From: Shigella phage JK32
Strand: one strand, 5' to 3'
DNA: 64,000 bases
Sequence record: MK962753.1
Below the pieces are notes generated by a model that was not told the DNA's origin, searched no databases, and saw only the letters and a program-made list of their open reading frames with translations. Below are positions 1 to 33,295 of this stretch, piece by piece (position 1 is the first letter of the stretch; the number at the start of each line of letters is the position of its first letter). Made by a program: the position numbers and the translations under genes.

Positions 1-162
1 CAGTTCTTCAATCATATCACGGTCGGGAATAATGTCAACCCCGACCTGCTTGAATACTGGTTTAAGTGTATACGGAATACCCAGATCATCCAGTAGCTTC
101 ATTGCACCAATACAACCATAACAATGATAAGCCTCTTTCGGTATACCGTATATCTCGATCAT
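1..162 (-). CDS. Glutaredoxin/thioredoxin-like protein (NrdC/NrdH family); N-terminal 54 codons only, remainder beyond window start
   Basis: Reverse translation MIEIYGIPKEAYHCYGCIGAMKLLDDLGIPYTLKPVF; CxxC (CYGC) motif; ATG at 160-162 overlaps stop of upstream ORF. Confidence 0.6.
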   Translation of the reverse strand, partial: MIEIYGIPKEAYHCYGCIGAMKLLDDLGIPYTLKPVFKQVGVDIIPDRDMIEEL

Positions 163-659
163 TTCTCAGCCTTTAATCTTTCTAGTTCTTCTTCCAGTTC
201 CTTGATCCGTTGGTCACGTTCAAAGTCACGCTGTAACTTAGTGGCGAATACTCGTTTAAACTGATTGTAATCATCGATTTTAAACACTTCTTCTTCGCCA
301 TAGCGACGTACAGAAACTTCGTAGTTGTTGAAGAATTGTTGCATCATTGCTTCGGATGACAGTTCTGCTGATACTACTTTAAAATATTGATCTTCTGTAG
401 GCGAAAACCAATTACAAGCATAAAGATAAACCTTTTCATTGTCTGGACACTGGTAAGCCTTACCATCGATTTCAATCACAGAAACATATTCAGGTATACT
501 AGATGAATCAATAGCTAAGACTTTAAACGCACGGTCCCCGATAAACTCGGAGATCACACGATTCGCATCACTGGTTGCAAATGCTTTACGCGCTTGTTCG
601 TTTTTCCACTTATAGGTCATACCAACAACAAACATATTACCAACCTCGCTCTTTACCAA
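159..659 (-). CDS. Hypothetical protein, member of GKTYxWK paralogue family with coiled-coil tail
   Basis: ORF track; motif MTYKWKNEQARKAF shared with neighbours; C-terminal ELEEELERLKAEK; start may be the internal ATG at 635. Confidence 0.6.
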   Translation of the reverse strand: MVKSEVGNMFVVGMTYKWKNEQARKAFATSDANRVISEFIGDRAFKVLAIDSSSIPEYVSVIEIDGKAYQCPDNEKVYLYACNWFSPTEDQYFKVVSAELSSEAMMQQFFNNYEVSVRRYGEEEVFKIDDYNQFKRVFATKLQRDFERDQRIKELEEELERLKAEK

Positions 660-1470
660 TCAAAAATTCAACTTCACGACGTTTAATGTCTTCTTGAAGG
701 TCTTTAATCTTCTGGCGATCTTGCATGATTTCATCCATCTTGTCAAGTGCCGCAATGAAATCATCGAAACGTTCAAAGGTTTTACCTTCATTTGCTTCGC
801 CAAATTTAACCATTGTCAGGCCGTAACGACTACTAAACAGACGTTTCAACTGTCCAACGACCTTAGAATCATCGTTCACCTTTTCTTCTGGTTCTTTCGC
901 TGTTTCAACTTCACGAAAATATTTTCGTTCAAGCCCAACAAACCACACAGCATCAACATCATCATCAACACCCGCCGAATGAGGATTAAATGTTCCACAA
1001 ACATTATCATTATTGACGTCGATCATAGTAACGAAACCAACAGAATCAACGGAAGATACCGTAAAAGTCTCATCTCCTATCCAATCAGCAATTTTACGGT
1101 TGATATTAGAACAGTGAGAAAACGTCACTTTTGCGTTTACATCCTTCCAAATATAAGTTTTACCAACTTCCCATTTAGGAGGAACTTCTTCAACTTCACG
1201 AAAGAATTTTATATCAAATGGACTAAACAAATATGTTGACGTCCAAATGTCTTTTCCTGTAGCCGTTTTCGCCGTATGATAAACACCGTCTAGCTCTATT
1301 GCATCAATCCAACCATTACCCTCGATCTCGATGATGGTAAATGGCTTGTCACCAATAGCTGCACTGATATCGCTGTTAAGTGGAGAAAGATCACCTGCTA
1401 CGTTAGTAATAAACTCAGTTTTAGCGTTTTCATCTTTCCAAGTGTAAGTTTTACCAATTTCCCATTTCAT
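637..1470 (-). CDS. Hypothetical protein, two tandem copies of the GKTYxWK domain
   Basis: MKWEIGKTYTWKD and PKWEVGKTYIWKD repeats within one ORF. Confidence 0.6.
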   Translation of the reverse strand: MKWEIGKTYTWKDENAKTEFITNVAGDLSPLNSDISAAIGDKPFTIIEIEGNGWIDAIELDGVYHTAKTATGKDIWTSTYLFSPFDIKFFREVEEVPPKWEVGKTYIWKDVNAKVTFSHCSNINRKIADWIGDETFTVSSVDSVGFVTMIDVNNDNVCGTFNPHSAGVDDDVDAVWFVGLERKYFREVETAKEPEEKVNDDSKVVGQLKRLFSSRYGLTMVKFGEANEGKTFERFDDFIAALDKMDEIMQDRQKIKDLQEDIKRREVEFLIGKERGW

Positions 1471-1482
1471 AATATATTCCCC

Positions 1483-1962
1483 TTAACCGATTTTATCAAG
1501 TTCGTTTAATGCTTTCTCTGCTTCCTGTATAGCTTGCACTCTTTCCGGCATTTTGTCAAGAAAATCTTTCAACTCTTCAAAACTGGAGATATGACGCAAG
1601 GCGTTAGCACCGATAGCCGCATGTGATTTGCATTCAAAGCGAATTTTATAATTATCCATCGCCAACTTGAGAAGGTCCATCAGTTTAGATTCTTCTGGAA
1701 TAATAATTTCTTCAAATCTGCTACGGTCATGATCCAGAAACCAACAAGATAGACCTACATCGGTTGAACTCATATAAGTTCCATCATGAAGATAAACAGA
1801 CCGCACGTATCCTTTTTTCGCATCAACCGACGCAACTTTAAACGGTAATCTCAGATATTTCAAATAATCAACATCATACCATTTAAAAAATTGGTTTGCA
1901 TCTTTTACATCTTTCCACGCATAGGTCTTACCAGCTTCCCATTTCATAATATCATCTCTCAT
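1483..1962 (-). CDS. Hypothetical protein, GKTYxWK paralogue family
   Basis: MKWEAGKTYAWKD N-terminus; alpha-helical C-terminal tail. Confidence 0.6.
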   Translation of the reverse strand: MRDDIMKWEAGKTYAWKDVKDANQFFKWYDVDYLKYLRLPFKVASVDAKKGYVRSVYLHDGTYMSSTDVGLSCWFLDHDRSRFEEIIIPEESKLMDLLKLAMDNYKIRFECKSHAAIGANALRHISSFEELKDFLDKMPERVQAIQEAEKALNELDKIG

Positions 1963-2506
1963 TTTTGATACGTGATTCTAATTGGATCATACGGTCGCGC
2001 GTTTGTTTGTATTCTCGGATAGCACCGATCCGGCTAGGCATACCATCCAGTACGCTCTTAATATCTTCTAGGGTAGTAATTTTGGCAATGCTATTATGTA
2101 ACCCCATCTTATCGATCAACTGAATGTCGTAGGCTTCCATAAGCAGACCCAGACGTTCTAATGTTAAATCCGGTTCTTGTTCTTTATCTTCTTCCTTTTC
2201 TTCCGGTTCTGGGATTTCTTTGTCAATAGTAGCTTCGGTAAAGAAACGACGCTCACCAGCCCAAAACCACACACCGGAAAAGCCAATAGGGGATTCTTTT
2301 AACGTCATAGAGTCGTAACCACTGCCGATAATAGTAATTTCTCTAACATCACCATCATCGTCAATGTCTTCTACCCTAAACGGGCGACCAGCCAACAAGT
2401 CCACAATACGTCTGTTAATAGACGACGAAAATTTAGTCAGTTCGGCTTTCGACGCTTCGCATTCAATCTTGTAAGTTTTACCAACTTCCCATTCCATAAT
2501 AATCAC
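1952..2506 (-). CDS. Hypothetical protein, GKTYxWK paralogue family
   Basis: MEWEVGKTYKIE N-terminus; acidic linker EPEEKEEDKEQEPD. Confidence 0.6.
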   Translation of the reverse strand: MIIMEWEVGKTYKIECEASKAELTKFSSSINRRIVDLLAGRPFRVEDIDDDGDVREITIIGSGYDSMTLKESPIGFSGVWFWAGERRFFTEATIDKEIPEPEEKEEDKEQEPDLTLERLGLLMEAYDIQLIDKMGLHNSIAKITTLEDIKSVLDGMPSRIGAIREYKQTRDRMIQLESRIKNER

Positions 2507-2507
2507 C

Positions 2508-3017
2508 TCAAATAATTTTCACTGGAATACTATTAACAATCTTGTATTGTACTTGATTGTCAGACCCCCGCCACGGCTTCTTCGTTGGCATATCTTTAAT
2601 ATAACGCCCATCGATGAACATGTCAACTGATTCTACAATTTTTCTTTGCTCATCATTCAATTGGTCAAGGGTATAACCGGACCATAGCCAAATATCTTTA
2701 TTTGGCATCCATGATTTTACCTCATCGATGATCCGCTGTACACCCTTTAAATTGCGTTTATACAGTGGATCACCACCTAAGAATGTTAGCCCCTGAATAA
2801 AATCAGGTCTAAGCAGATCCAGAATCAATCCCATTGTATCATCGGTGAATGGTTCCCCGTTCTTAGGATTGAGTAGGCTAGCATTAAAGCAACCATCACA
2901 TGCGTGTGAACATCCGGTAACGTAAAGGGAGACTCTCACTCCCTCACCGTTAACCATATCACAATCTTTAATATCGGCATAGCGTAGTTTGCCGTATGTA
3001 TCAGAACTCATATTCAA
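2508..3017 (-). CDS. nrdG: Anaerobic ribonucleotide reductase activating protein (radical SAM)
   Basis: CSHACDGC cluster (CxxxCxxC) near N-terminus; size 169 aa; downstream of nrdD on same strand. Confidence 0.9.
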   Translation of the reverse strand: MNMSSDTYGKLRYADIKDCDMVNGEGVRVSLYVTGCSHACDGCFNASLLNPKNGEPFTDDTMGLILDLLRPDFIQGLTFLGGDPLYKRNLKGVQRIIDEVKSWMPNKDIWLWSGYTLDQLNDEQRKIVESVDMFIDGRYIKDMPTKKPWRGSDNQVQYKIVNSIPVKII

Positions 3018-3153
3018 TTACCCCGAACTCGTTTACAATCTGCGCTTTATAGTAACCACCGCGAGATGCCAATAGATAAGCTGGGCTTAGGTATTCGTAT
3101 TCACGGATTTCTACTTGTGCGTTTTCAGTTTCCCAAATCAGTAAAGTCCACAT
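3001..3153 (-). CDS. Small hypothetical protein (about 50 aa)
   Basis: ATG immediately after conserved leader GGAGAATCAAA; track ORF 3001-3228 is probably over-extended. Confidence 0.4.
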   Translation of the reverse strand: MWTLLIWETENAQVEIREYEYLSPAYLLASRGGYYKAQIVNEFGVIEYEF

Positions 3154-3195
3154 ATTTGATTCTCCTGTAAAGTTGTATCTCGTCTTGATGAATAT

Positions 3196-3224
3196 AGTAT
3201 AGGGGATCTCGCGATCCCCGTCAA
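3196..3224 (-). promoter_or_regulatory. Sigma70-type early promoter (TTGACG-17-TATACT) with stem-loop in spacer
   Basis: Reverse strand reads TTGACG gggatcgcgagatcccc TATACT; followed by conserved leader and ATG at 3153. Confidence 0.55.
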
Positions 3225-3228
3225 GCAT

Positions 3229-3762
3229 TTATTTTAAATTTTTTCGAATGTATTCAGACCATTCTCTGCCAGTAAGTTCGGTCCCATTCTGGAAACTGAA
3301 ATATTCATACGGCATCGAGTCAAGATAAAACAGGATCATACATCGCGCCATATAATACCAATCACGATTAAAGTAAACTACGTTATCGCCAGTACCATCA
3401 ACCCCTTTATCATAACCATCGCGGGTACGGGCGACCCATTGAATAGTATCATTTTTCTCACGGATAGTAACAGGTTCCCAATATCCAGCACAGCCAGCAT
3501 GACCACACGAACAAGTAAGGAAATATTGACCTTTTGCTTTGTTGTCATCCCATTCACGATGAATTGGTTCGATTTCGTGAAACAGTGCCAAGCAATCATG
3601 ATTATGCAACACTGGCTTACCATCAATCAATGCATGGAATGTATGCAAACGACCAGTAGACAAATAGCTATCCTCACGCTCAACCAGTTCAATAGCAATC
3701 TTTTTAGCTCGTTCTTTGTGTCGTTGTGCTTTACGCTTACGGTTTAATGATTTCATACTCAC
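3229..3762 (-). CDS. Hypothetical Cys-rich protein between nrdD and nrdG
   Basis: ORF track; CSCGHAGCAGY cysteine cluster. Confidence 0.6.
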   Translation of the reverse strand: MSMKSLNRKRKAQRHKERAKKIAIELVEREDSYLSTGRLHTFHALIDGKPVLHNHDCLALFHEIEPIHREWDDNKAKGQYFLTCSCGHAGCAGYWEPVTIREKNDTIQWVARTRDGYDKGVDGTGDNVVYFNRDWYYMARCMILFYLDSMPYEYFSFQNGTELTGREWSEYIRKNLK

Positions 3763-3775
3763 CTCACAATTTCAA

Positions 3776-4309
3776 TTAGCAACGATACTGCACATTATCA
3801 AAATGAGAATGTACATTACCGATGGTATAGATCAAAAATCCCTCGTCCGGCGATTGCACCACAAATTGAGTAGGTCCAACTGCAACAACCTTAAACACAC
3901 GATCACTAACTTTGTGTTTAATCTCTGCGCCAACTTCCAAAGGAACAAATTTTACTGTGGAAAGTTCAATACCAAAACCATCATCATGCAAACGAATAGG
4001 TTTATTGTTATCGATCATTTTCACATATTCAAGATCATACAATTCGCGGGTGCTATCAGTGTAAACCAATACTGTATTGTTATGATAACGAATTACATAC
4101 ATGTTATGGTCATCATCAAGTACACATAAATTACGAATCGGTGTACCCTCTCCTTTTTTACTCCAACAGATATTAACCACATTACCTTGAATTGTGAATG
4201 GCTTAGACGTTCCGAAAGTCGCTAAAGTGCTTTCTCTCATCTGGACGGTTACGCGAGTCCCAATAGTCAGCGGCTTAAAATCATACCCATTAGTCAGTAC
4301 ACAAAACAT
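3776..4309 (-). CDS. Hypothetical protein
   Basis: ORF track 177 aa; preceded by own promoter. Confidence 0.6.
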   Translation of the reverse strand: MFCVLTNGYDFKPLTIGTRVTVQMRESTLATFGTSKPFTIQGNVVNICWSKKGEGTPIRNLCVLDDDHNMYVIRYHNNTVLVYTDSTRELYDLEYVKMIDNNKPIRLHDDGFGIELSTVKFVPLEVGAEIKHKVSDRVFKVVAVGPTQFVVQSPDEGFLIYTIGNVHSHFDNVQYRC

Positions 4310-4341
4310 AATGTTATCCTCTCTTTGTTTTCGATGTGAGC

Positions 4342-4369
4342 ATTATACATTAGCTAATCAGGTTGTCAA
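4342..4369 (-). promoter_or_regulatory. Sigma70-type early promoter (TTGACA-16-TATAAT)
   Basis: Reverse strand TTGACA acctgattagctaatg TATAAT upstream of ORF 3776-4309. Confidence 0.6.
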
Positions 4370-4371
4370 CA

Positions 4372-4407
4372 CCTAAAAACGAAAAAGCCGACCCTTTCGG
4401 ATCGGCT
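4372..4407 (-). terminator. Rho-independent terminator after nrdD
   Basis: Reverse strand stem agccgatccgaaagggtcggct followed by T-run. Confidence 0.6.
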
Positions 4408-4412
4408 AAAAA

Positions 4413-6275
4413 TTACATGTGCTTAACGCGGTTTACCATCTCAGAGTGTTTCCCGTGGTTAAATGGACGCAGATCAACAGACCCAAGATATCCACTAACG
4501 CGACGGATAACATTCATCTTTTCCAGATTGTCATTGCCGCAATCAGGACAAACAAAACCAAACTCGGTCGCTCTCATTTCCTTAGTAGATCCGCATACAT
4601 GACATACATCAGAAGGAGTATTAACACCGAAGTAGTGCAATTTATCCATTGCATAATCTACTACGGTTTCAAGCCCTTTCAGGTTGTTTTTCATGTCTGG
4701 GAACTCAACATAAGAGATCATACCACCGGACGCCAGCCAGTGATAATCTTTCTCAAAGTCGATTTTCTCAAACGGTGTGACTTTCCGGTCTACGTCAAGG
4801 TGGAATGAGTTGGTGTACCAGTCTTTATCGGTAGCACCCTTAACAATACCAAATTGCTCTCGGTCCAGTCGATTAAATCGATAGCAAAGGCTTTCGGCTG
4901 GCGTACCGTAAAGACTAAACCCAAGTCCGGTTTCGTCCTTCCATTTTTCAGTATAATGACGCAAGATCTTAAGAATATGTTTACCGTATCGCTGCGCTTC
5001 TTCCGAATCAAACGGATGAACACCAAACAGGACGCTCAATACTTCATGTAAACCAATATATCCAAGCGAGATACTAGCGCGACCATCTTTCAGCACTTCC
5101 AAAATTTCATCGTTTTGATGGATACGGAAAAATGCACCTTCTGTATACAGCACCGGAGCAACATTGGCTTTAGCCCCTTTTAAAGCGTCTACGCGACTCA
5201 TCAGCGCATCAAAGCAAATAGGCATACGATTAGCCAGCTCTTGTTCGAATAGCTCAATTCTGCGCATTACAGACGCTTTACCAGCACGACGCGCGGCAAT
5301 AAGAGCAATACGCGGAAGATTCAGAGTCACAACACCTAAGTTATTACGTCCGTCTAATACTTCTTCGCCTTTCTCATTATGCCACACACCCAGGAAGCTA
5401 CGACAACCCATCGGGCTAACCGGAACACTAGATCCAGTGATACTACGGTTATTCTTCGCAGAGATATAATCAGGGTAAAGACGCTTACTAGAACATTCCA
5501 ATGCAAGTTGCTTAATGTCGTAGTTCGGATCTTCCGGTTTAAGGTTTAATCCTTCTTCTAAGAACATCACCAGCTTAGGAAACACCGGAGTGATACCATC
5601 TTTACCTAAACCTTTAGTTCGAACGTTCAGGATCGCTTTCTGAATCAGTTTTTCTTCCCAGCTAGTACCCATACCAAAGGTTAAAGTCACAAAAGGCGTT
5701 TGACCATTGGTAGAGAACAAAGTGTTGATCTCATATTCCAACGCCTGATATCCGTCTAACGTTTCTTTTTCTGTCTTCTCTTGTGCATAGAGAGTATCAG
5801 CTTTGATTCCGTAGGTTTCGGCATCAGCAAGGTGTTTATGATATGTTTTCTCAACGTATGGCGCTAAAACCTGATCAATGTTTGCTATGGTAGTTCCGCC
5901 ATATTGATGACTTGCCACCTGTGCGATAATTTGAGCGGTTACAGCACATGCAACACCGATTGATTTCGGACTTTCGATTTGTGCACTACCCAATTTAAAA
6001 CCATTCTCTAACATGTCTTTGAGATTAACAAGACAGCAGTTAGTAAACGGCATAGCGGGTGCATAATCCATATCATGATAATGAATATCACCGTCTACAT
6101 GCGCTTTATAGATGTGCTCAGGTAACACGGTTTTAGCAATCTGTTTAGACACAGCGCCAGCAATCAGATCTCGACGTGTCGGGAATGTTCGCGCGTCTTT
6201 GTTCGCGTTCTCTTTGCTTACTTCGTTTTCTTTACCCGTTGCGATCTCTGTAATGTCTTTGATTAGTTTTTCCAT
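4413..6275 (-). CDS. nrdD: Anaerobic ribonucleoside-triphosphate reductase (glycyl radical enzyme), uninterrupted
   Basis: 620 aa; C-terminal Zn-ribbon CPDCG and glycyl radical motif RVSGYLG; close match to recalled T4 NrdD. Confidence 0.95.
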   Translation of the reverse strand: MEKLIKDITEIATGKENEVSKENANKDARTFPTRRDLIAGAVSKQIAKTVLPEHIYKAHVDGDIHYHDMDYAPAMPFTNCCLVNLKDMLENGFKLGSAQIESPKSIGVACAVTAQIIAQVASHQYGGTTIANIDQVLAPYVEKTYHKHLADAETYGIKADTLYAQEKTEKETLDGYQALEYEINTLFSTNGQTPFVTLTFGMGTSWEEKLIQKAILNVRTKGLGKDGITPVFPKLVMFLEEGLNLKPEDPNYDIKQLALECSSKRLYPDYISAKNNRSITGSSVPVSPMGCRSFLGVWHNEKGEEVLDGRNNLGVVTLNLPRIALIAARRAGKASVMRRIELFEQELANRMPICFDALMSRVDALKGAKANVAPVLYTEGAFFRIHQNDEILEVLKDGRASISLGYIGLHEVLSVLFGVHPFDSEEAQRYGKHILKILRHYTEKWKDETGLGFSLYGTPAESLCYRFNRLDREQFGIVKGATDKDWYTNSFHLDVDRKVTPFEKIDFEKDYHWLASGGMISYVEFPDMKNNLKGLETVVDYAMDKLHYFGVNTPSDVCHVCGSTKEMRATEFGFVCPDCGNDNLEKMNVIRRVSGYLGSVDLRPFNHGKHSEMVNRVKHM

Positions 6276-6287
6276 TGTATCACCTAT

Positions 6288-6310
6288 GAAAAAGCGGGAT
6301 TTCTCCCGCT
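6288..6310 (-). terminator. Rho-independent terminator
   Basis: Reverse strand agcgggagaaatcccgct followed by TTTTT. Confidence 0.5.
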
Positions 6311-6319
6311 CGTTGATAG

Positions 6320-6814
6320 TTATTTTACCAGTTCTGCTAATTCTTTTTCCGCCGCTTCCAGTTCAGCTTTCAGTTGTTTAATCTCTTGTCGCTTCTTATT
6401 AGCGGCTTCCTGCTTACTATTTCGGATAACCTGATCTAGATATGAATCCCACTCCTGAATATTTTTGATAATGTAACCGTCAACGTTCAGAACTTTAATA
6501 TTAAGAACTTCTTCCAGCTTACTTAAAGAACGTTGTGTTTCGGGGAAGAAATAGTCATATTCACCTCGGTCAAACCAGTAGCGTATGCCAGCTTTATCTA
6601 AACGACGATGCAATTCATCAAAATCTCTACCATCTTCGACGATGAGTTTGTCTACATCGCCATTACAGTTAACAGAGACTTTGAATCTAATATTATCAAC
6701 CCCACCAAAAACATCAATAAGGATAGTTCCTATCGTGTTATCCGCGCTTCCAGTATCCATAAAAGATTCTAGTTTTTCTTGATTAGTAACGTACCAAACA
6801 TCTTGTTTCCACAT
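6320..6814 (-). CDS. Hypothetical protein with coiled-coil tail, grouped with the GKTYxWK family by architecture
   Basis: ORF track; C-terminal KQLKAELEAAEKELAELVK. Confidence 0.55.
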   Translation of the reverse strand: MWKQDVWYVTNQEKLESFMDTGSADNTIGTILIDVFGGVDNIRFKVSVNCNGDVDKLIVEDGRDFDELHRRLDKAGIRYWFDRGEYDYFFPETQRSLSKLEEVLNIKVLNVDGYIIKNIQEWDSYLDQVIRNSKQEAANKKRQEIKQLKAELEAAEKELAELVK

Positions 6815-6844
6815 AATATAATCCTCTCGTTGTTAAGTGGGAGT

Positions 6845-6872
6845 ATTATAGCATACTCCCTTCGCATGTCAA
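6845..6872 (-). promoter_or_regulatory. Sigma70-type early promoter (TTGACA-16-TATAAT)
   Basis: Reverse strand TTGACA tgcgaagggagtatgc TATAAT; hairpin gggagta/tactccc overlaps -10. Confidence 0.6.
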
Positions 6873-8047
6873 GCACTAACTTTTTTCTTTACTGCTTTCA
6901 CCTTCTGGCGAATTGCTCGAATCTCTTCGATCTCTTTTTCAGTCTCTTTAACAATTTCTTTGCGATTCTGAATATCTGTATCGAGATTATCATCAAGTTT
7001 AGGCAGCATGTCAATCAAGAACTTTTTAAAGTCTTTCAGGTTTCTGATAACAGCACCTTCACCCATTACCGCCACCCCTACACCATCCGGCAGATCGCCA
7101 AACAGTTTAACCAGTTCAGACAGATGATCATGATCTTCTAGTGCTTCTTCCGGTTCAGATGGCAGTTCAACAAAGTTATAACGTTCATCATTGCTGATGA
7201 GGTGATACCAGCAAAGCCCGAATGATTTCGGTGTATATTCTACACCATCAATTTCAACCGAGTCAACACTTCCATAATCATCTACTTTAGTTACCTTAAA
7301 TCCTTGTCCCAGCTTTTGAACAATTTCAACAACATGACTTGATACAGTTTCAGCGGTAAACCAATATGGCAAATTATGCTGATTTGGCTTGTAGCGTTCA
7401 CCTACTTTAAATCTCTGACCAGCCGCTTGCATAGCATGAAATTGTTGTTTCGTGATTTCCGCGAAGTATTCAAATTCGCTACCATCAAACACACAAGCCC
7501 ATTGATCACAAAAACGATCTGCCTTGACGGTTTCACCTTTCGCGGTGATCATGGTAGCTGATCCGTGCAATTCTTCTTCAACTAAAAAGCCATATTCGAC
7601 AAAATCGACAAGTTTCATGGCTTCTTTGTGCTCTGGATCATGCTCTCCCCAGAATCGCTTAAATTCTTGCAAACCTTCCGGGGTAAACGAATAACATTTA
7701 CCTTTTTCAAAGTAAGTCGGCATTGCATCCTCTTTCTTGTTCATCGCTTCGTATGCCTCTTTTGAGATGCGTTTAAAGTATTTGCGCTCATTGTGCATAA
7801 TCATAGTAGACCAATAATAAACGATATCCTCAGCGGAATAAACTACATCTCCAGCTTCAATAGTAATAACATGACCGTGGTCATCTTTTTCTAATACTTT
7901 AAAGCCCTTTTCTACGATTTCAGCAACCCGAATATGACCACGGCGCGAAGCATCGGTCAGAATAATTGAATAGCGAGAAAAGTCTAGAAACTCATCTTTA
8001 CCGCCTTCACGGAATGCATAGTAATGACCTTCAAAGAATTTAGCCAT
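6869..8047 (-). CDS. Hypothetical protein with three tandem repeat domains and a coiled-coil tail
   Basis: Repeats FEGHYYAFREGG, FEKGKCYSFTPEG, FKVGERYKPNQ; KYFKRISKEAYEAM motif shared with 8103-8687. Confidence 0.6.
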   Translation of the reverse strand: MAKFFEGHYYAFREGGKDEFLDFSRYSIILTDASRRGHIRVAEIVEKGFKVLEKDDHGHVITIEAGDVVYSAEDIVYYWSTMIMHNERKYFKRISKEAYEAMNKKEDAMPTYFEKGKCYSFTPEGLQEFKRFWGEHDPEHKEAMKLVDFVEYGFLVEEELHGSATMITAKGETVKADRFCDQWACVFDGSEFEYFAEITKQQFHAMQAAGQRFKVGERYKPNQHNLPYWFTAETVSSHVVEIVQKLGQGFKVTKVDDYGSVDSVEIDGVEYTPKSFGLCWYHLISNDERYNFVELPSEPEEALEDHDHLSELVKLFGDLPDGVGVAVMGEGAVIRNLKDFKKFLIDMLPKLDDNLDTDIQNRKEIVKETEKEIEEIRAIRQKVKAVKKKVSA

Positions 8048-8077
8048 AATATAATCCTCTCGTTGTTAAGTGGGAGT

Positions 8078-8106
8078 ATCTTACTACTCCCGTTTCATCA
8101 TGTCAA
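8078..8106 (-). promoter_or_regulatory. Sigma70-type early promoter (TTGACA-17-TAAGAT)
   Basis: Reverse strand TTGACA tgatgaaacgggagtag TAAGAT; hairpin gggagta/tactccc. Confidence 0.5.
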
Positions 8107-8687
8107 GCGTTAAATGACTTTTGGATCTCTTTCAGTTCAGCTACTTTATCGGCGCTGAATTTAGCGTAGGTATCATGTCGAATAATTTCACTTTCAAGAA
8201 AGGTTTCCAGACGAGATCTATTTTCAATAAGGAACTCTTTCAGGTCTTCCGCGTTCTTGATAAAGATTTTATTGTCGGTAATGTCATCTTCAATCGCAAA
8301 GGAGATAGAGCGAACTTTACCAAACAAGTTAATCAGATCTTCCAGAGATTCTTCTTTCTTAACTGGTTTCATTTCTTCAAACTGCTTTTTAGTGATTCGT
8401 TTAAAGTATTTGCGCTCGCTTGCATCAATCATGATTGACGCGCCCTCATAATCATGAGTTTCTACCAAATACACTTTACCCATAACATTAACCGTCAGAA
8501 CTTTAAAGCCCTTGTGAAGCACACCATACAGGAACTTGTTATGTTGTGGATAGCGTTTAACAAATTCCTCTGCGGACTCAGCATTACGGAAAGTGTAATA
8601 ACGACCTCGTTCAAAAACAGCATCATTTGAAGACTTAGCCGGATACAATTTATACGTTTTCTGTACCATAATATAATCCTCTATCAT
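8103..8687 (-). CDS. Hypothetical protein, repeat family
   Basis: KYFKRITKKQFEEM motif; overlaps upstream ORF by 4 nt. Confidence 0.6.
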   Translation of the reverse strand: MIEDYIMVQKTYKLYPAKSSNDAVFERGRYYTFRNAESAEEFVKRYPQHNKFLYGVLHKGFKVLTVNVMGKVYLVETHDYEGASIMIDASERKYFKRITKKQFEEMKPVKKEESLEDLINLFGKVRSISFAIEDDITDNKIFIKNAEDLKEFLIENRSRLETFLESEIIRHDTYAKFSADKVAELKEIQKSFNA

Positions 8688-8956
8688 TTCACTAATTGAA
8701 CAGCACGAAACAGAATGCGGTCACACGGAAGCAGCATAAATTCCCAACGCGGTTCAAAGTCTTTAGCGGTATATGTTTTCCCATCAACCGAGATTTCACT
8801 TACATAACCAATAGGTGACACTTTAAGAACAGTAAATCCATTCTTGATGACTTCGTAGGTATCTTTCAATCCGTCGTAGTCATCCTCTAGGAAGTCTTTA
8901 CGTGCTTGCTCAGATTTAAAAACATAGGCCACACCGGATTTAAACATCTTACGCAT
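8684..8956 (-). CDS. Hypothetical protein, single repeat-domain member
   Basis: MRKMFKSGVAYVFKSEQARKDF resembles N-terminus of ORF 159-659; start placed after GGAGAATCAA leader. Confidence 0.55.
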   Translation of the reverse strand: MRKMFKSGVAYVFKSEQARKDFLEDDYDGLKDTYEVIKNGFTVLKVSPIGYVSEISVDGKTYTAKDFEPRWEFMLLPCDRILFRAVQLVK

Positions 8957-8987
8957 TGTTGATTCTCCTTCTTGATTAGATGGGAGT

Positions 8988-9016
8988 ATTTTATTACTCC
9001 CATTTCTTATTGTCAA
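8988..9016 (-). promoter_or_regulatory. Sigma70-type early promoter (TTGACA-17-TAAAAT)
   Basis: Reverse strand TTGACA ataagaaatgggagtaa TAAAAT. Confidence 0.5.
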
Positions 9017-9019
9017 CTA

Positions 9020-30008: not shown

Positions 30009-30202
30009 GTCACCGTTTTGTAAAGAAACACAATAAAATCCAAGACAAGAAAGACAGTGTAAATGATCATCGTCAAGACAGTAAACACTGTCAGATTTTC
30101 ATCGTTAGTTAATTCATAGTCGCCCATCCATACAATAACAAGATATAGCATTGAAAGAATGGAAGCACCTACGAAGTTAAAAACATATTCTTGAGCGTCA
30201 TA

Positions 30203-30385
30203 TTAACAACCATCGCGGCTTAAGTCAACAGCAATTGCATACAGCATAATGAATATGCTAGCAGATCCGAGAATCAATGCACCCTCACATTTTGAAACTC
30301 GCTCATCAAAATGTAACATTATCCATCCGAGGATGTTAAAGGCGCAGACCGCGCCTATGTTCGCTAACCAATTAATCTTTTTCAT
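30203..30385 (-). CDS. Small membrane protein
   Basis: Hydrophobic helices. Confidence 0.4.
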   Translation of the reverse strand: MKKINWLANIGAVCAFNILGWIMLHFDERVSKCEGALILGSASIFIMLYAIAVDLSRDGC

Positions 30386-30393
30386 AATATACC

Positions 30394-30720
30394 TTAGAAA
30401 GAAACAGTTTTCAAGAAATCCAGATTTTTAGTACCGAAAACAGAAAAGTAGTGTTTTCCTTTTTCGGTTTTAGAGAAAGCGATTGTCTTCTCTACATGGT
30501 GACGGAAGCCAGACAGACGATCACCCAAGTCAAGGCGGCAAGCGTAAGTAGTGCCGTTTTCGAAAGTAACCTCGATTTGAGTTTTGTCATATTCGCTTTC
30601 ATAGGCTTTTGCTGCCGCGTCCTTTGCTTTACGCTCGAAGTCTTCGAAGTGGAATACTTCGTTTGCGTTAGCGAATACAGAAGATTCAGAGAAGATAACT
30701 TTAACAGATACTGGTTTCAT
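30394..30720 (-). CDS. Hypothetical protein
   Basis: ORF track; ATG after conserved leader. Confidence 0.55.
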   Translation of the reverse strand: MKPVSVKVIFSESSVFANANEVFHFEDFERKAKDAAAKAYESEYDKTQIEVTFENGTTYACRLDLGDRLSGFRHHVEKTIAFSKTEKGKHYFSVFGTKNLDFLKTVSF

Positions 30721-30762
30721 TTTGATACTCCTTAGTAGTTCGTGTTTCGTTTCGATGGGTGT

Positions 30763-30791
30763 ATTATGCTATACACCCTCTCGCGTGTCAA
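30763..30791 (-). promoter_or_regulatory. Sigma70-type early promoter (TTGACA-17-CATAAT)
   Basis: Reverse strand TTGACA cgcgagagggtgtatag CATAAT. Confidence 0.6.
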
Positions 30792-30799
30792 CAACTTTT

Positions 30800-30988
30800 T
30801 TAGTCTTTTTTCATAATTTCTAGAGCAGTTTCTACCGCACCTTTCCAACCTTCCCACATAATGGACATAGTAATGAAGTTAAAGCACCCGCAGAAATCAA
30901 CCTTTTTAGAGATAAACCATTCTACAAACGCTTCGCTCATACCATGCTCTTTAGCGGATTCGCGTAATTGTTCAATTTGGTCTTCCAT
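30800..30988 (-). CDS. Hypothetical protein
   Basis: ORF track. Confidence 0.45.
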   Translation of the reverse strand: MEDQIEQLRESAKEHGMSEAFVEWFISKKVDFCGCFNFITMSIMWEGWKGAVETALEIMKKD

Positions 30989-30997
30989 AGTATCACC

Positions 30998-31249
30998 TCA
31001 ACATTTAACGTTATTCAAACGATTTTGAAAGTACATATAGCAAGCATAATTTTGCTTTGGTTGTACCGTGTCAGATAGACACGCTTTTACAGCCTCGCGG
31101 TCCGATGGATCTACACCCTCAGCCTTAAGTAATGCTAAAATCTGGTTATAGCGTACTCTTAGTTGTACTAATGGTTTCTCTCCCATATTACACCCCTTAC
31201 AGTTGATCAGCGATGTATGCGGTGCAAGCGCGGAGTTTTGCCATAGCAC
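30998..31249 (-). CDS. Hypothetical protein
   Basis: ORF track. Confidence 0.4.
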   Translation of the reverse strand: MLWQNSALAPHTSLINCKGCNMGEKPLVQLRVRYNQILALLKAEGVDPSDREAVKACLSDTVQPKQNYACYMYFQNRLNNVKC

Positions 31250-31424
31250 CGCCTTTCATGTCACTAGCACCGACAATGTTCATGATCTCTAAGCGATCCG
31301 CTGGATTTAAGCGGGTAGCCCAGATCTGATTAGCCAGTTCCAGTTTACCCATTTGAGGTTCAATTTCTAACATTTCACGCTCAAAGTCGATGATTTCTTT
31401 TGCTGCTTCTTTAAAGTTGATCAT
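31197..31424 (-). CDS. Hypothetical protein
   Basis: ORF track; ATG after conserved leader. Confidence 0.5.
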   Translation of the reverse strand: MINFKEAAKEIIDFEREMLEIEPQMGKLELANQIWATRLNPADRLEIMNIVGASDMKGGAMAKLRACTAYIADQL

Positions 31425-31453
31425 TTTGATTCTCCCGTTTCGTTGATGGTTGT

Positions 31454-31482
31454 ATTGTAGGGGAGTTATACTCCCCTGTCAA
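31454..31482 (-). promoter_or_regulatory. Sigma70-type early promoter (TTGACA-17-TACAAT) with hairpin in spacer
   Basis: Reverse strand TTGACA ggggagtataactcccc TACAAT. Confidence 0.5.
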
Positions 31483-31491
31483 CACTTTTTA

Positions 31492-31677
31492 TCAGAAATA
31501 TGCGATATAGTTTGCCAGTCCTACAGAGTCATCATTCGGCATTGCTTTTACTGCTAGTTCAAACCCTGCTTCAACTTTCTGTTTAGCGGATTCTTCGTTA
31601 TAACCCCAGATTACCAGAATAGCTACTACGTTTTCTTTGCTTACTGCTTTCAGTGCTTTAGTGATGCGACGTGCCAT
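31492..31677 (-). CDS. Hypothetical protein
   Basis: ORF track; ATG after conserved leader. Confidence 0.5.
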   Translation of the reverse strand: MARRITKALKAVSKENVVAILVIWGYNEESAKQKVEAGFELAVKAMPNDDSVGLANYIAYF

Positions 31678-31723
31678 AATTTGATTCTCCTAGTTAGAAA
31701 GTGTGTTTCGTTTCGATGGGGGT

Positions 31724-31752
31724 ATTATGCTATAGGCGTGATCTGGTGTCAA
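31724..31752 (-). promoter_or_regulatory. Sigma70-type early promoter (TTGACA-17-CATAAT)
   Basis: Reverse strand TTGACA ccagatcacgcctatag CATAAT. Confidence 0.6.
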
Positions 31753-31780
31753 CAACTTTTTTAAAAAAATTTAGGCAATA

Positions 31781-31806
31781 AAAAAAGCCACTCCGAAGAG
31801 TGGCTT
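31781..31806 (-). terminator. Rho-independent terminator
   Basis: Hairpin agccactccgaagagtggct flanked by A7 and T-rich runs. Confidence 0.6.
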
Positions 31807-31954
31807 ATAGGGAAGGTAGCGAATCTTCCTTGTCTCCAACCTGCTAGCGGCCTAGCAAGTGAATGCTTTAGCGTACCGGGTCACCCCATACGCTGTAATA
31901 AATGCGGCTAGGTGACGTCCAAATCATTCTAACCGCGCTGTCTTTAGTTCACTA
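31807..31954 (-). ncRNA. Candidate structured non-coding RNA (about 150 nt, no ORF)
   Basis: Coding-free GC-richer island with nested inverted repeats (gtcacc...ggtgac; gctagcggcctagc), ending in a strong terminator. Confidence 0.25.
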
Positions 31955-32173
31955 TTATTTATATCGCTTTCTCTCGCGACGTTTTTGATCTTCTTCCTTG
32001 ATAGAGTCAAATGCATCAAAAAGACACATGAGACTGATAATGAACATAACCGTATTTTCTACGATATCCCACGTCTTCGCATCAGTACAGATCCCCCAAA
32101 CGGTAAGAAATGCAAATAGTGCAGAAGAGATCACAAGCATGATACTTGCTAAGATATAAAAAGTCATTTTCAT
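31955..32173 (-). CDS. Small membrane protein
   Basis: Hydrophobic helices. Confidence 0.45.
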   Translation of the reverse strand: MKMTFYILASIMLVISSALFAFLTVWGICTDAKTWDIVENTVMFIISLMCLFDAFDSIKEEDQKRRERKRYK

Positions 32174-32364
32174 GGTTTTACCTCAATTTTTCGATATTCA
32201 TCACACATCCACGCAGTAAGCAAGAATCCCAGCACATAAGCAACAAAATACGTTAATGCTTCTTCTGGTTTCGTGCTATGTATCATCAGTAAACCAGCGA
32301 GAAAGGTCTTAACAATTACATTTAAAATAATTAGCCACGCAAATAATTTCATCGTTTGCCCCAT
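32170..32364 (-). CDS. Small membrane protein
   Basis: Hydrophobic helices; 4-nt overlap coupling. Confidence 0.45.
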   Translation of the reverse strand: MGQTMKLFAWLIILNVIVKTFLAGLLMIHSTKPEEALTYFVAYVLGFLLTAWMCDEYRKIEVKP

Positions 32365-32588
32365 TTCGGTCGAGCCTTTTCAAACTTATACATTCCGTAA
32401 CAATCTCGAATCATCCACGTAACAAGAGCACCAGTCAACACAGACAATACACAGAAGAAGTAAAACGGTCCGGTTGCATTATCAACATGAGCAAGCCATG
32501 TAAAGAAAACACATGCAAGGAACGTGAAGAACATCATAAAGCACAAGAAAGCAAAATATTTTATACTACTCATAGCGCCACCATACAA
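32349..32588 (-). CDS. Small membrane protein
   Basis: Hydrophobic helices. Confidence 0.45.
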   Translation of the reverse strand: MYGGAMSSIKYFAFLCFMMFFTFLACVFFTWLAHVDNATGPFYFFCVLSVLTGALVTWMIRDCYGMYKFEKARPKWGKR

Positions 32589-32676
32589 CAGATCACAAGA
32601 AACCCCAACGCAATAAGAATTTCATCAAATTTAGTGAACTCCGGTCCACCTATCAACATCATTCGTTCCTGTTCAT

Positions 32677-32874
32677 TCATAGATCACAGAGCCATCTGAA
32701 AGCACCACATAAAGCGAGCAGAATACTAGGTATAAACGAGACTAAAACAAGACTACAAAAATCATCTAAGGTAACGCCGGAATAGCTACCTACTGTAACA
32801 ACACCGATTATCAGACACAGAAAGAAAACAAATGCAACCAGAAACAAAGTATTGCTAAACAGTTTAGTGATCAT
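32677..32874 (-). CDS. Small membrane protein (start refined to MITKLF)
   Basis: Track ORF 32677-32919 overlaps its neighbour; internal ATG at 32874 removes the overlap. Confidence 0.4.
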   Translation of the reverse strand: MITKLFSNTLFLVAFVFFLCLIIGVVTVGSYSGVTLDDFCSLVLVSFIPSILLALCGAFRWLCDL

Positions 32875-33067
32875 TAGACACCCCACGACGATCAATTTCA
32901 AAAACTTTTTTATCATCAACGAAGCATGTCACAACTGCCTCGTTGACTTCCGCAAATTGTTGTGTTACCCACTTAAGGTCAGAGCGAAACAATGTTCTAT
33001 TAATAACAAATGTTTTACCGCTCTTATCCTTACCCATAAATTTTGCTTTAACCATATCCAATTCCAT
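32864..33067 (-). CDS. Hypothetical protein
   Basis: ORF track. Confidence 0.45.
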   Translation of the reverse strand: MELDMVKAKFMGKDKSGKTFVINRTLFRSDLKWVTQQFAEVNEAVVTCFVDDKKVFEIDRRGVSNDH

Positions 33068-33068
33068 A

Positions 33069-33235
33069 TTATCACCTTATTTGCTAATCGCTAAACCCAA
33101 TCCGAAGAGAGCACCCGATGCTACAGTATACCCGAAAGTTTCAAAGGCAGTAAAGATATCTAAGCCGCCAGCTAACAGAGTTGCAGTAAACAGAGTACCA
33201 GCTACGAAAATAAAAGTTTTACCGATAAATTTCAT
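33069..33235 (-). CDS. Small membrane protein (about 52 aa), absent from ORF track
   Basis: ATG directly after GGAGAATCAAA leader; translation MKFIGKTFIFVAGTLFTATLLAGG. Confidence 0.35.
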
Positions 33236-33266
33236 TTTGATTCTCCTTTCGTTTGTTTGTGGGGGT

Positions 33267-33295
33267 ATCTTACTACCCCCGTTTCATGTTGTCAA
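33267..33295 (-). promoter_or_regulatory. Sigma70-type early promoter (TTGACA-17-TAAGAT)
   Basis: Reverse strand TTGACA acatgaaacgggggtag TAAGAT; hairpin gggggta/taccccc. Confidence 0.5.

What the first reader, a model, noticed from the sequence alone, without database searches (positions are those of the whole stretch)
159..8956. Expanded paralogue family of repeat-domain proteins flanking nrdG and nrdD
Seen in sequence: at least seven minus-strand ORFs (159-659, 637-1470, 1483-1962, 1952-2506, 6869-8047, 8103-8687, 8684-8956) share a roughly 90-residue beta-rich domain (for example M[KE]WE[IAV]GKTY.WKD...IGD..F.V). It is repeated two or three times within some ORFs, and several end in coiled-coil tails. 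ORF 6320-6814 carries a similar tail but the domain motif was not checked in it. More than ten domain copies lie in under 9 kb, several with their own early promoter. Inference: a rapidly diversifying early-gene family, of the kind seen for host-takeover or anti-defence functions; function unknown.
Basis: seen in the sequence. Interest (0 to 1): 0.55.

Follow-up and report, generated by a model that had tools for sequence, protein, structure and literature searches.

The report
GoF/Frd.2-like early protein family expansion
Eight neighbouring early genes of an RB49-like T4-type coliphage carry eleven copies of a small SH3-like barrel domain; the repeat family is real, but it is an enlarged, rearranged version of the GoF/Frd.2/MotB.1 family described in phage T4 in 2025, whose normal function is still unknown.

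Summary
The window is a Krischvirus (RB49-like, 92-96% nt identity). Seven minus-strand genes carry ten copies of a ~90-residue domain (leave-one-gene-out profile E 3e-7 to 3e-15). ORF 6320-6814 is an eighth gene and eleventh copy (E 1e-6 with a broader profile). No other ORF in the 64 kb matches.

Four points go beyond what I could find described:
- RB49-type phages have 9 genes and 12 barrels; T4 has 3 and 3.
- Some proteins carry two or three barrels in tandem.
- Seven of the eight window genes share a C-terminal tail.
- Between Krischvirus genomes the barrel is usually the swapped part (37-57% identity) while its tail stays 79-99%. Flanking nrdG, nrdD and gp49 are 99-100% identical.

Three right-cluster genes carry their own PeSL early-promoter cassette. 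Function is untested. dN/dS of 0.13-0.51 indicates purifying selection with allele exchange, not positive selection.

The parts
159..635 (-). Gene o159 (158 aa). Barrel at 360-635, tail at 162-359.
   Evidence: Leave-one-out profile E 3.1e-15. PHROG 5347, 1.6e-60. Start fixed by the 158-aa orthologues.
637..1470 (-). Gene o637 (277 aa). Barrel 1 at 1180-1470, barrel 2 at 871-1179, tail at 640-870. Barrel 2 is a rare allele.
   Evidence: Two profile domains, E 9e-15 and 5e-14. Across five genomes barrel 2 is 37-40% identical, while barrel 1 is 90-94% and the tail 97-99%. The window's barrel-2 allele occurs in 2 of 56 matching records.
1483..1947 (-). Gene o1483 (154 aa). Barrel at 1684-1947, tail at 1486-1683.
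   Evidence: Leave-one-out E 1.9e-12. Compared with ECD7, the barrel is 45% identical and the tail 98%.
1952..2497 (-). Gene o1952 (181 aa). Barrel at 2222-2497, acidic linker at 2171-2221, tail at 1955-2170. This is the protein that was modelled.
6320..6814 (-). Gene o6320 (164 aa). Divergent eleventh barrel at 6539-6814, tail at 6323-6538.
   Evidence: Family profile A2, which does not contain it, gives E 1e-6 over profile positions 2-81. The window-only profile gives E 0.004. It sits in its own PHROG, 15067.
6869..8047 (-). Gene o6869 (392 aa). Barrels at 7730-8047, 7424-7729 and 7148-7423; tail at 6872-7147. Annotated Frd.2 or goF-like in RB49-type records.
   Evidence: Three profile domains, E 2.6e-12, 3.3e-7 and 1e-10. 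PHROG 8944 'goF mRNA metabolism modulator', 2e-213. The AlphaFold2 model repeats the same secondary-structure pattern three times and ends in a helix at residues 337-391, but confidence is low.
8103..8669 (-). Gene o8103 (188 aa). 16-residue N-terminal extension, barrel at 8355-8621 (the only basic one, pI 9.4), tail at 8106-8354.
   Evidence: Leave-one-out E 6.4e-14. Charge. Here the tail is the variable part (63%) and the barrel is 94-98% identical.
8684..8956 (-). Gene o8684 (90 aa). A single barrel with no tail.
   Evidence: Leave-one-out E 3.9e-14. The 90-aa orthologues fix the ATG at 8956.
8957..9019 (-). PeSL-type cassette upstream of o8684: TTGACA, 17 nt, TAAAAT, with a stem-loop over the -10 box, then Shine-Dalgarno and ATG.
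   Evidence: Promoter scan 11/12. Alignment of the four upstream regions. Stem -12.9 kcal/mol, z -4.6. Motif search.
8045..8109 (-). PeSL-type cassette upstream of o6869. It includes a 35-nt leader identical to that of o6320.
   Evidence: Promoter scan 10/12. Perfect 35-nt repeat 8045-8079 = 6812-6846. Stem -11.9 kcal/mol, z -3.3.
6812..6875 (-). PeSL-type cassette upstream of o6320: TTGACA, 16 nt, TATAAT with an upstream TG, and a stem over the -10 box.
   Evidence: Promoter scan 12/12. Stem -14.5 kcal/mol, z -4.7. GGGAGTA(N4-8)TACTCCC occurs only three times in the 64 kb, at these three cassettes.
2598..2626 (-). Candidate sigma-70-like promoter inside the 3' end of nrdG, upstream of the tightly packed left cluster.
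   Evidence: Promoter scan 11/12. Consensus match only. The left-cluster genes are separated by about 1 to 12 nt.

Best explanation
**Shown**
- The eight genes are a Krischvirus-lineage expansion of the GoF (ComC-alpha) / Frd.2 / MotB.1 family of T4-type phages.
- Each protein has one to three SH3/FeoA-like small barrels of about 90 residues.
- In seven of the eight, a linker and a tail of about 70 residues follow. The tail is a helix, a hairpin and a long terminal helix.
- The genes sit in two plastic slots, nrdH-nrdG and nrdD-gene 49. The right-cluster genes lie behind PeSL early-promoter cassettes.

**Inferred, about 0.3 for the specific mechanism**
- They are made early and in quantity, as T4 GoF is.
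- The tail makes them self-associate.
- The barrels are the ligand-binding modules. A tail-joined oligomer would display two to six barrels that bind host components governing early mRNA fate (termination or decay factors, or the RNA itself). This would tune transcript survival.
- Between related phages the barrel is exchanged as a cassette on a constant tail, which re-targets the protein.
For: **Family identity**
- A profile made only from the ten window barrels finds, in a six-frame scan of T4, GoF (E 8.4e-9), Frd.2 (6.1e-6) and MotB.1 (0.027) and nothing else. A 62-sequence profile raises these to 4.8e-19, 1.6e-11 and 2.4e-6.
- These are exactly the three T4 members named by Kim et al. 2025 (PMC12152347).
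- The window proteins cross-match three PHROGs labelled goF.

**Fold**
- The barrel model has pLDDT of about 90.
- 64 BFVD viral models match at E <= 1e-3. All are uncharacterised proteins, and the named ones come mostly from T4-type phages.

**Modularity**
- Per-segment identity across five Krischvirus genomes: o159 barrel 55-57% against tail 85-86%; o637 barrel 2 37-40% against tail 97-99%; o1483 barrel 45% against tail 98% (ECD7); o6320 barrel 51-53% against tail 79-83%.
- Alleles occupying one slot can be as far apart as paralogues.
- A one-barrel variant carrying the o637 tail exists (P0055).
- Conserved nucleotide patches lie at barrel starts and ends.

**Selection**
- dN/dS is 0.13-0.51, all below 1. 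Gene order is the same in six genomes.

**Early expression**
- PeSL cassettes (PMC2839356).

**RNA lead**
- GoF(D25Y) stabilises gene 41 mRNA post-transcriptionally, and G84R is the second suppressor (PMC12152347).
- At the D25 column four window barrels carry W or F. At the G84 column five carry K or R. o1952 (F23, R84) and o6869 barrel 1 carry both.

**Self-association**
- GoF and MotB.1 run as monomer plus dimer (PMC12152347).
- Long terminal helices of 28 and 55 residues are predicted.
Against: **No function was measured here.**

**From T4**
- Wild-type GoF and MotB.1 had only slight effects in the reporter assay of Kim et al. Only the mutant acts on RNA.

**Against direct RNA binding**
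- Most barrels are acidic, typically net -8 with pI 4.4-4.8, which argues against direct RNA binding for most copies.

**Weak structural support**
- Tail homology is weakly supported by sequence: 2 of 7 leave-one-out tests.
- Oligomerisation is inferred from predicted helices only.
- The three-barrel model is of low confidence and says nothing about how the barrels pack.

**Exception to the pattern**
- In o8103 the tail varies and the barrel is constant.
Confidence: 0.5

Rival explanations
1. The barrels bind host proteins unrelated to RNA. In this reading they are inhibitors or decoys for host defence or other takeover targets, and the variable barrels track variable host targets.
For: - Most barrels are acidic.
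- The family is expanded and its alleles are swapped between close relatives, while flanking genes are nearly identical.
- Expression is early, from strong cassettes in plastic regions.
- The T4 homologues are dispensable on laboratory hosts (PMC12152347), as is usual for host-range genes.
Against: - No partner, toxicity or defence phenotype is known for any member.
- dN/dS is below 1 in every gene.
- The only genetics for the family (GoF D25Y and G84R; rho mutants; gene 41 mRNA) points to RNA.
- The anti-defence literature was not searched here, and padloc holds defence systems, not inhibitors.
Confidence: 0.3
2. They are true LSm/Hfq-like RNA chaperones that assemble into rings. Tandem barrels would supply several ring subunits from one chain.
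For: - Kim et al. call the fold LSm-like and place Hfq among the structural neighbours (PMC12152347).
- Two- and three-barrel chains could build pseudo-hexamers.
- One barrel, in o8103, is basic with pI 9.4.
Against: - There is no Pfam LSM or Hfq signal in the window proteins or in 62 family members.
- The helices lie between strands 1 and 2, not as the N-terminal Sm helix.
- Most barrels are strongly acidic.
- Kim et al. obtained no confident hexamer models.
- The three-barrel model shows no ring (low confidence).
Confidence: 0.08
3. The genes are largely dispensable cargo multiplied by PeSL-mediated recombination in hyperplastic regions. In this reading the family size reflects the duplication mechanism rather than selection for function.
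For: - The genes lie in plastic slots that T4 fills differently.
- An identical 35-nt leader is shared by two cassettes, and this cassette subtype is specific to the family.
- Arbiol et al. show that PeSLs drive shuffling (PMC2839356).
- The T4 homologues are non-essential.
Against: - All eight genes keep the same order in six Krischvirus genomes, and their reading frames are open in all but FL15's o1483 orthologue.
- dN/dS of 0.13-0.51 shows purifying selection.
- The family persists across T4-type phages of many hosts.
- It has expanded independently elsewhere: contig L014 has 12 barrels in 5 genes.
- T4 frd.2 scored as a fitness gene in a CRISPRi-ART screen (PMC11879866).
Confidence: 0.1
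4. The shared motifs are compositional and there is no real homology.
For: - Pairwise identities are low, 5-44%.
Against: - Leave-one-gene-out profile E-values are 3e-7 to 3e-15, and no other ORF among 597 is hit.
- The window proteins cross-match independent PHROG profiles.
- The barrel fold is confidently predicted.
Confidence: 0.01

Closest known systems
T4 GoF (ComC-alpha), the founding member of the 'LSm-like fold' family of Kim et al. 2025 (PMC12152347)
   Same: - Homologous N-terminal barrel: E 4.8e-19 to the family profile, aligned over GoF residues 4-94.
- Same layout of barrel, acidic linker and short C-terminal domain.
- An early gene.
- Same structural neighbours, led by FeoA.
   Different: - GoF has one barrel and a different C-terminal domain. 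The tail profile finds nothing in T4, and profile-profile comparison with the GoF C-terminus is null.
- GoF lies next to gene 39, not the nrd genes.
- Several window barrels natively carry an aromatic residue at the D25 column and a basic residue at the G84 column. In GoF these arise only as suppressor mutations.
T4 Frd.2 (Pfam PF03197 FRD2) and T4 MotB.1
   Same: - Homologous barrels: E 1.6e-11 and 2.4e-6.
- o6869 has been annotated 'Frd.2' in RB49, Phi1 and ECD7 records.
   Different: - The window proteins do not reach PF03197 even at E <= 1.
- They have multiple barrels and a different tail.
RB49 Dc2 (RB49p021, between genes 61 and 41; outside this window)
   Same: - One barrel (E 2.8e-7) followed by a C-terminal stretch that looks like the tail by eye, though it was not tested separately.
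- The ECD7 Dc2 model matches the o1952 model (Foldseek E 5e-7).
   Different: - It lies at a separate locus and is the most divergent Krischvirus member.
FeoA and the SH3-like domains of DtxR/IdeR; more broadly Tudor, KOW and EF-P domain I small barrels
   Same: - The barrel has helices inserted after strand 1.
   Different: - No sequence relationship.
- Kim et al. note that GoF lacks the histidine motif that SloR- and IdeR-type regulators use to bind metal.
- This is a fold resemblance only.
PeSL (promoter-early stem-loop) regulatory cassettes of RB49/phi1 (Arbiol et al. 2010, PMC2839356)
   Same: - Strong sigma-70 consensus, a stem-loop overlapping the -10 box, then Shine-Dalgarno and start codon.
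- Located between genes in plastic regions.
   Different: - The GGGAGTA...TACTCCC subtype is found in this window only in front of three family genes.
- Promoter and terminator activity of these particular copies was not tested.

Membership tests
GoF/Frd.2/MotB.1 phage family (Kim et al. 2025) | [quoted passage not shown] | tested here: met
   The window-only profile hits only these three proteins in T4. The broader profile gives E 4.8e-19, 1.6e-11 and 2.4e-6. All 11 window barrels match that profile.
GoF/Frd.2/MotB.1 phage family (Kim et al. 2025) | Predicted bent antiparallel small barrel, with FeoA-type SH3-like domains as nearest solved structures | tested here: met
   [not shown]
GoF/Frd.2/MotB.1 phage family (Kim et al. 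2025) | Barrel joined by a flexible linker to a C-terminal domain that varies between members | tested here: met
   Linker residues 93-109 have pLDDT below 50, followed by a separate tail. The tail is unrelated to the GoF C-terminal domain.
GoF/Frd.2/MotB.1 phage family (Kim et al. 2025) | Early expression and abundance during infection | tested here: inconclusive
   Strong sigma-70/PeSL-type sites precede three genes. These are consensus matches only; there are no expression data.
GoF/Frd.2/MotB.1 phage family (Kim et al. 2025) | Effect on mRNA level or stability (shown only for the GoF D25Y mutant) | not testable with these tools
   Only indirect evidence: aromatic or basic residues at the D25 and G84 columns in several barrels.
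Pfam PF03197 (FRD2) | Score above the curated gathering threshold (29 bits) | tested here: not met
   No window protein hits PF03197 at E <= 1. T4 Frd.2 scores 133 bits. 9 of 62 family barrels hit weakly, best E 7e-4.
LSm/Sm/Hfq superfamily | Sm fold (an N-terminal helix then five bent strands) recognisable against solved Sm or Hfq structures or Pfam LSM/Hfq models | tested here: not met
   [not shown]
LSm/Sm/Hfq superfamily | Ring-shaped homo-oligomers | not testable with these tools
   Only monomer prediction was available. Kim et al. report no confident hexamer models (PMC12152347).
FeoA / DtxR-type SH3-like domain | Sequence membership (Pfam FeoA) in addition to fold similarity | tested here: not met
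   No Pfam FeoA hit. Foldseek E 0.19-0.36. There is fold resemblance only.
PeSL regulatory cassette (Arbiol et al. 2010) | Sigma-70 consensus promoter, a stable stem-loop within or next to it, then Shine-Dalgarno and start codon, in an intergenic position | tested here: met
   (stems -11.9 to -14.5 kcal/mol, z -3.3 to -4.7). Activity was not tested.

The most novel reading that the evidence does not exclude
The family may be a combinatorial binder system.
- A constant, self-associating tail would carry one to three interchangeable barrels.
- Co-infecting Krischviruses would swap those barrels as cassettes, through the conserved coding patches at barrel boundaries and through family-specific PeSL cassettes.
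- The phage population would then keep a pool of specificities against variable host factors, either defence proteins or the RNA decay and termination machinery.
- Barrels with a native aromatic residue at the GoF-D25 column and a basic residue at the G84 column (o1952, o6869 barrel 1) would be naturally active versions of the RNA-stabilising activity that T4 GoF shows only as a mutant.
Probability: 0.2. Interest if true: 0.7.

Novelty: new variant of a known kind. Interest (0 to 1): 0.4.

Why it matters
**An open question in T4 biology.** What wild-type GoF/ComC-alpha does has been open for decades, since goF suppressors of rho(nusD) hosts were isolated. The family was recognised only in 2025, and only mutant GoF shows an activity.

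**What the RB49-type phages add**
- A natural series of 12 barrels for comparison.
- Barrels that already carry the residue types of the two GoF suppressor mutations.
- Multi-barrel chains.
- A shared tail that may explain the dimers seen for GoF and MotB.1.
- These give direct candidates for the existing reporter and rho-host assays.

**A worked example of evolution in plastic regions.** The barrel-on-constant-tail swapping, together with a family-specific promoter cassette, shows in some detail how plastic regions of T4-type genomes change. If none of this leads to a phenotype, the result is still a correct annotation: eight 'hypothetical' genes, plus Dc2, belong to one known family.

Tried and rejected
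**Database searches**
- Pfam and NCBIfam on the window proteins returned nothing meaningful.
- PDB sequence searches returned only calmodulin noise for the barrel and coiled-coil noise for the tail.
- Foldseek against the PDB found nothing significant.
- The afdb50 library was unavailable.
- The word-indexed protein search returned only close Krischvirus relatives, even with a 62-sequence profile.
- The exhaustive search found 83 cluster representatives. About fifteen giant repeat proteins among them match only profile positions of roughly 17-75, and I treat them as spurious.

**Structure and tail**
- The AlphaFold2 model of the three-barrel protein was too uncertain (pLDDT 63.6) to say anything about barrel packing or rings.
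- The tail profile finds nothing in T4, and nothing in the GoF C-terminus by profile-profile comparison.
- A crude heptad count on the tails was uninformative.

**Idea rejected: the expansion compensates for the lack of MotA middle-mode transcription**
- RB49 lacks motA (PMC1524935).
- RB43 lacks it too, yet has only one weak two-barrel gene (ORF273w, E 2e-7), sitting between nrdG and nrdH.
- So there is no simple link.

**Idea considered and left open: a functional link to ribonucleotide reductase**
- Members lie near nrdG, nrdH or nrdD in Krischvirus, RB43, L013 and L014.
- But T4 GoF and MotB.1 and RB49 Dc2 lie elsewhere.
- Shared ancestry of a plastic slot explains the pattern more simply.

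**Literature**
- Searches found no description of the RB49 expansion.
- The Kim et al. text does not mention RB49, tandem domains or duplication. Its supplements were not available.

Full report
**What the window is**

Megablast of positions 1-9100 matches 58 phage records, all RB49-type (genus Krischvirus), at 92-96% identity. The region is collinear with RB49 30,139-39,214. In transcription order on the minus strand the genes are:

- gene 49
- four unnamed genes
- nrdD
- three unnamed genes
- nrdG
- four unnamed genes
- nrdH

. In T4, nrdD abuts gene 49, and only the small gene 55.8 lies between nrdH and nrdG. The family therefore fills two slots that differ between T4-type phages.

**Checking the observation**

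BLASTP among the translated ORFs gives many pairwise hits of 1e-5 to 1e-11. I cut out ten domain copies and built profiles that left out every copy from one ORF in turn.

- Each omitted copy is recovered at E 3.3e-7 to 3.1e-15, for a search space of the window's 597 six-frame ORFs.
- A profile of the left cluster finds all three right-cluster ORFs; the right-cluster profile finds two of the four left-cluster ORFs.
- Nothing else in the 64 kb matches.

It scores E 1e-6 with a 62-sequence family profile that excludes it. It is an eighth gene and an eleventh copy.

Orthologue lengths move four start codons to 635, 1947, 2497 and 8669. They confirm 8956.

Seven of the eight genes also share a C-terminal module of about 70 residues. 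Its alignment is plausible, but sequence support is weak: only 2 of 7 leave-one-out tests are significant.

**What the domain is**

- Pfam and NCBIfam give nothing for the window proteins.
- PHROGs link them to each other. They also link them to three groups labelled 'goF mRNA metabolism modulator'.
- The RB49 RefSeq record already calls two of them frd.2 or goF-like.
- A six-frame scan of the whole T4 genome with the window-only profile returns GoF (8.4e-9), Frd.2 (6.1e-6), MotB.1 (0.027) and nothing else. The broader profile gives 4.8e-19, 1.6e-11 and 2.4e-6.

These are exactly the three proteins that Kim et al. [quoted passage not shown] According to that paper:

- the N-terminal domains share a bent five-stranded sheet;
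- FeoA-type SH3 domains and Hfq are the structural neighbours;
- GoF is abundant and early, at about 20,000 copies per cell;
- GoF and MotB.1 run partly as dimers;
- only the suppressor mutant GoF(D25Y) raises reporter mRNA stability, and wild-type GoF and MotB.1 have only slight effects.

**Structure**

An AlphaFold2 model of o1952, using 31 aligned family sequences, shows three parts:

- a confident barrel at residues 1-92, with pLDDT about 90. Its order is strand, two helices, strands, helix, strand;
- a disordered acidic linker at residues 93-109;
- a tail of helix, hairpin, helix and a 28-residue terminal helix, with pLDDT 65-82.

I therefore call the fold a FeoA/SH3-like small barrel. 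The 'LSm' label is not supported by my tests.

Against predicted viral structures, 64 models match at E <= 1e-3. All are uncharacterised proteins. They come mostly from T4-type phages of Escherichia, Aeromonas, Edwardsiella, Proteus, Citrobacter, Morganella and Pectobacterium. A few come from other large myoviruses, and one is Dc2 of ECD7.

The three-barrel protein modelled poorly (pLDDT 63.6). The model repeats the same secondary-structure pattern three times and ends in a 55-residue helix. It gives no reliable information on how the barrels pack.

**Size of the family**

- An exhaustive profile search of 1.8 billion cluster representatives finds only 83 at E <= 1e-3.
- Most of the hits are 120-270 residues with one or two barrels.
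- About fifteen giant repeat proteins match only part of the profile and look spurious.
- Scanning RB49 outside the window adds one member, Dc2, between genes 61 and 41 (E 2.8e-7). RB49-type phages therefore have 9 genes and 12 barrels; T4 has 3 and 3.
- The expansion is not unique to this genus. Metagenomic T4-type contig L014 has five adjacent genes with 2, 2, 3, 3 and 2 barrels. They lie just upstream of its gene 49-like/nrdD/nrdG/nrdH block and have a different C-terminal domain.
- Contig L013 has a two-barrel gene next to an nrdH-like gene.
- RB43 has one weak two-barrel gene between nrdG and nrdH.

**How the family varies**

All eight genes are present in the same order in RB49, FL15, ECD7, Brandy and Phi1. 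Comparing the window with these five genomes:

| Genes | Protein identity | dN/dS |
|---|---|---|
| nrdG, nrdD, gp49 | 99-100% | 0.03-0.07 |
| Family genes | 63-99% | 0.13-0.51 |

dS is also raised in the family genes, reaching 0.9. This is the signature of divergent alleles exchanged by recombination under relaxed purifying selection. It is not in-place positive selection.

Splitting each protein into segments shows where the change sits:

| Gene | Barrel identity | Tail identity |
|---|---|---|
| o159 | 55-57% | 85-86% |
| o637 | barrel 2: 37-40%; barrel 1: 90-94% | 97-99% |
| o1483 (vs ECD7) | 45% | 98% |
| o6320 | 51-53% | 79-83% |
| o8103 | 94-98% | 63% |

o8103 is the one reverse case.

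- In the five other genomes, the second barrel of the o637 orthologue is closer to the window's barrel 1 (45-48%) than to its barrel 2 (36-40%). That slot has therefore been refilled.
- The window's allele is found in only two records, UPWr_E1 and FL04.
- A database variant, P0055, has one barrel on the same tail.
- At the DNA level, a 69-nt patch (67-75% identical) marks four barrel starts, and shorter patches mark barrel ends. These are plausible recombination anchors, but that is an inference.

**Regulation**

The regions upstream of o8684, o6869 and o6320 align as one cassette:

- TTGACA, 16-17 nt, then a TATAAT-like box;
- a 7-9 bp stem, GGGAGTA...TACTCCC, over the -10 box (-11.9 to -14.5 kcal/mol, z -3.3 to -4.7);
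- then CAACGAGAGGATTATATTATG.

The last 35 nt are identical in front of o6320 and o6869. The stem motif occurs only at these three places in the 64 kb. This matches the PeSL elements that Arbiol et al. 2010 showed to be strong early promoters and terminators, and drivers of shuffling, in RB49 and phi1.

The left cluster is packed with gaps of about 1 to 12 nt. Its only candidate promoter lies inside nrdG.

**A functional lead**

I aligned the window barrels and GoF to the family profile.

- At the column of GoF D25 (suppressor D25Y), the window has W in o1483 and F in o1952, o6869 barrel 1 and o6869 barrel 2.
- At the column of G84 (suppressor G84R), it has K or R in o637 barrels 1 and 2, o1952, o6869 barrel 1 and o8103.
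- o1952 (F23, R84) and o6869 barrel 1 carry both.

Against direct RNA binding, most barrels are acidic, typically net -8. Only the o8103 barrel is basic.

**Interpretation**

Shown:
- family membership;
- the small-barrel fold, as a prediction;
- the modular layout;
- the expansion;
- barrel-focused allele exchange;
- the PeSL association.

Inferred:
- early and abundant expression;
- tail-driven self-association;
- the barrels as binding modules;
- action on early mRNA fate.

I give about 0.3 to an RNA-metabolism role and about 0.3 to protein targets unrelated to RNA, such as host defence. True Sm-like rings or purely selfish cargo get less.

One idea failed. I asked whether the expansion makes up for the missing MotA middle mode in RB49 (PMC1524935). 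RB43 also lacks MotA and has only one weak member.

**Novelty**

The domain family and the cassette type are both published, and two of the genes already carry family names in databases. I found no description of the following:

- the 12-barrel expansion;
- the tandem-barrel chains;
- the shared tail;
- the barrel-versus-tail pattern of variation;
- the native suppressor-type residues.

I rate it a new variant of a known kind, of moderate interest.

Noticed in passing
window 3776-4309 (-), with 4342-4412 upstream: Non-family gene o3776 (177 aa, PHROG 14838) is the most divergent gene in the region. It is 59-60% identical to all five compared Krischvirus genomes, with dS of about 1.4. It sits behind a terminator hairpin (4386-4407, -16.5 kcal/mol) and a 12/12 sigma-70 site (4369>4342), so it looks like another swapped PeSL module.
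   Followed up: partly
window 6812-6846 and 8045-8079: A perfect 35-nt direct repeat forms the leader, Shine-Dalgarno and ATG of o6320 and o6869. This suggests recent copying or gene conversion of the regulatory cassette between two family genes.
   Followed up: partly
L014 7887-13566 (Logan SRR14300940_297): An unrelated T4-type contig has five adjacent genes with 2, 2, 3, 3 and 2 barrels, 12 in all. They lie just upstream of its gene 49-like/nrdD/nrdG/nrdH block and carry a different, alpha/beta-looking C-terminal domain. This is an independent expansion in the same neighbourhood.
   Followed up: partly
RB43 NC_007023 162210-163136 (L018 12811-13737); L013 323-1147: RB43 ORF273w (a weak two-barrel hit, E 2e-7) lies between nrdG and nrdH. 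Two-barrel gene P0060 in L013 lies next to an nrdH-like gene. The nrdG-nrdH slot may be an old home of the family.
   Followed up: partly
RB49 NC_005066 11993-12628 (L006): Dc2, between primase gene 61 and helicase gene 41, is a ninth RB49 member. It has one barrel followed by a C-terminal stretch that looks like the tail. In T4, GoF(D25Y) acts on gene 41 mRNA, so the position next to gene 41 is curious.
   Followed up: no
L009 (FL15) 2080-2560: The FL15 orthologue of o1483 is annotated as two overlapping ORFs (2080-2421 and 2381-2560). This suggests a frameshift, a pseudogene or a sequencing error.
   Followed up: no
window 660-803 (-), and protein P0056: Database protein P0056 has the o637 barrel 1, but its C-terminus is read in the alternative frame that appears in the window as the 47-aa ORF 660-803. 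It is a frameshifted variant or an assembly error of the o637 tail.
   Followed up: no
window 4413-6275 (-): nrdD is a single uninterrupted ORF of 620 aa here, and it is annotated as a single CDS in RB49 too. T4 nrdD is split by the I-TevII intron, and the L014 nrdD is split by a homing-endonuclease gene.
   Followed up: no
proteins P0058, P0062 and others: Giant bacterial repeat proteins of 1,000-5,000 aa (cadherin/VCBS-like) score up to E 1e-13 against the barrel profile. They do so through many partial matches to positions of about 36-65 (F.V..VD..G.V). This is a trap for anyone building a Pfam-style model of the family.
   Followed up: partly
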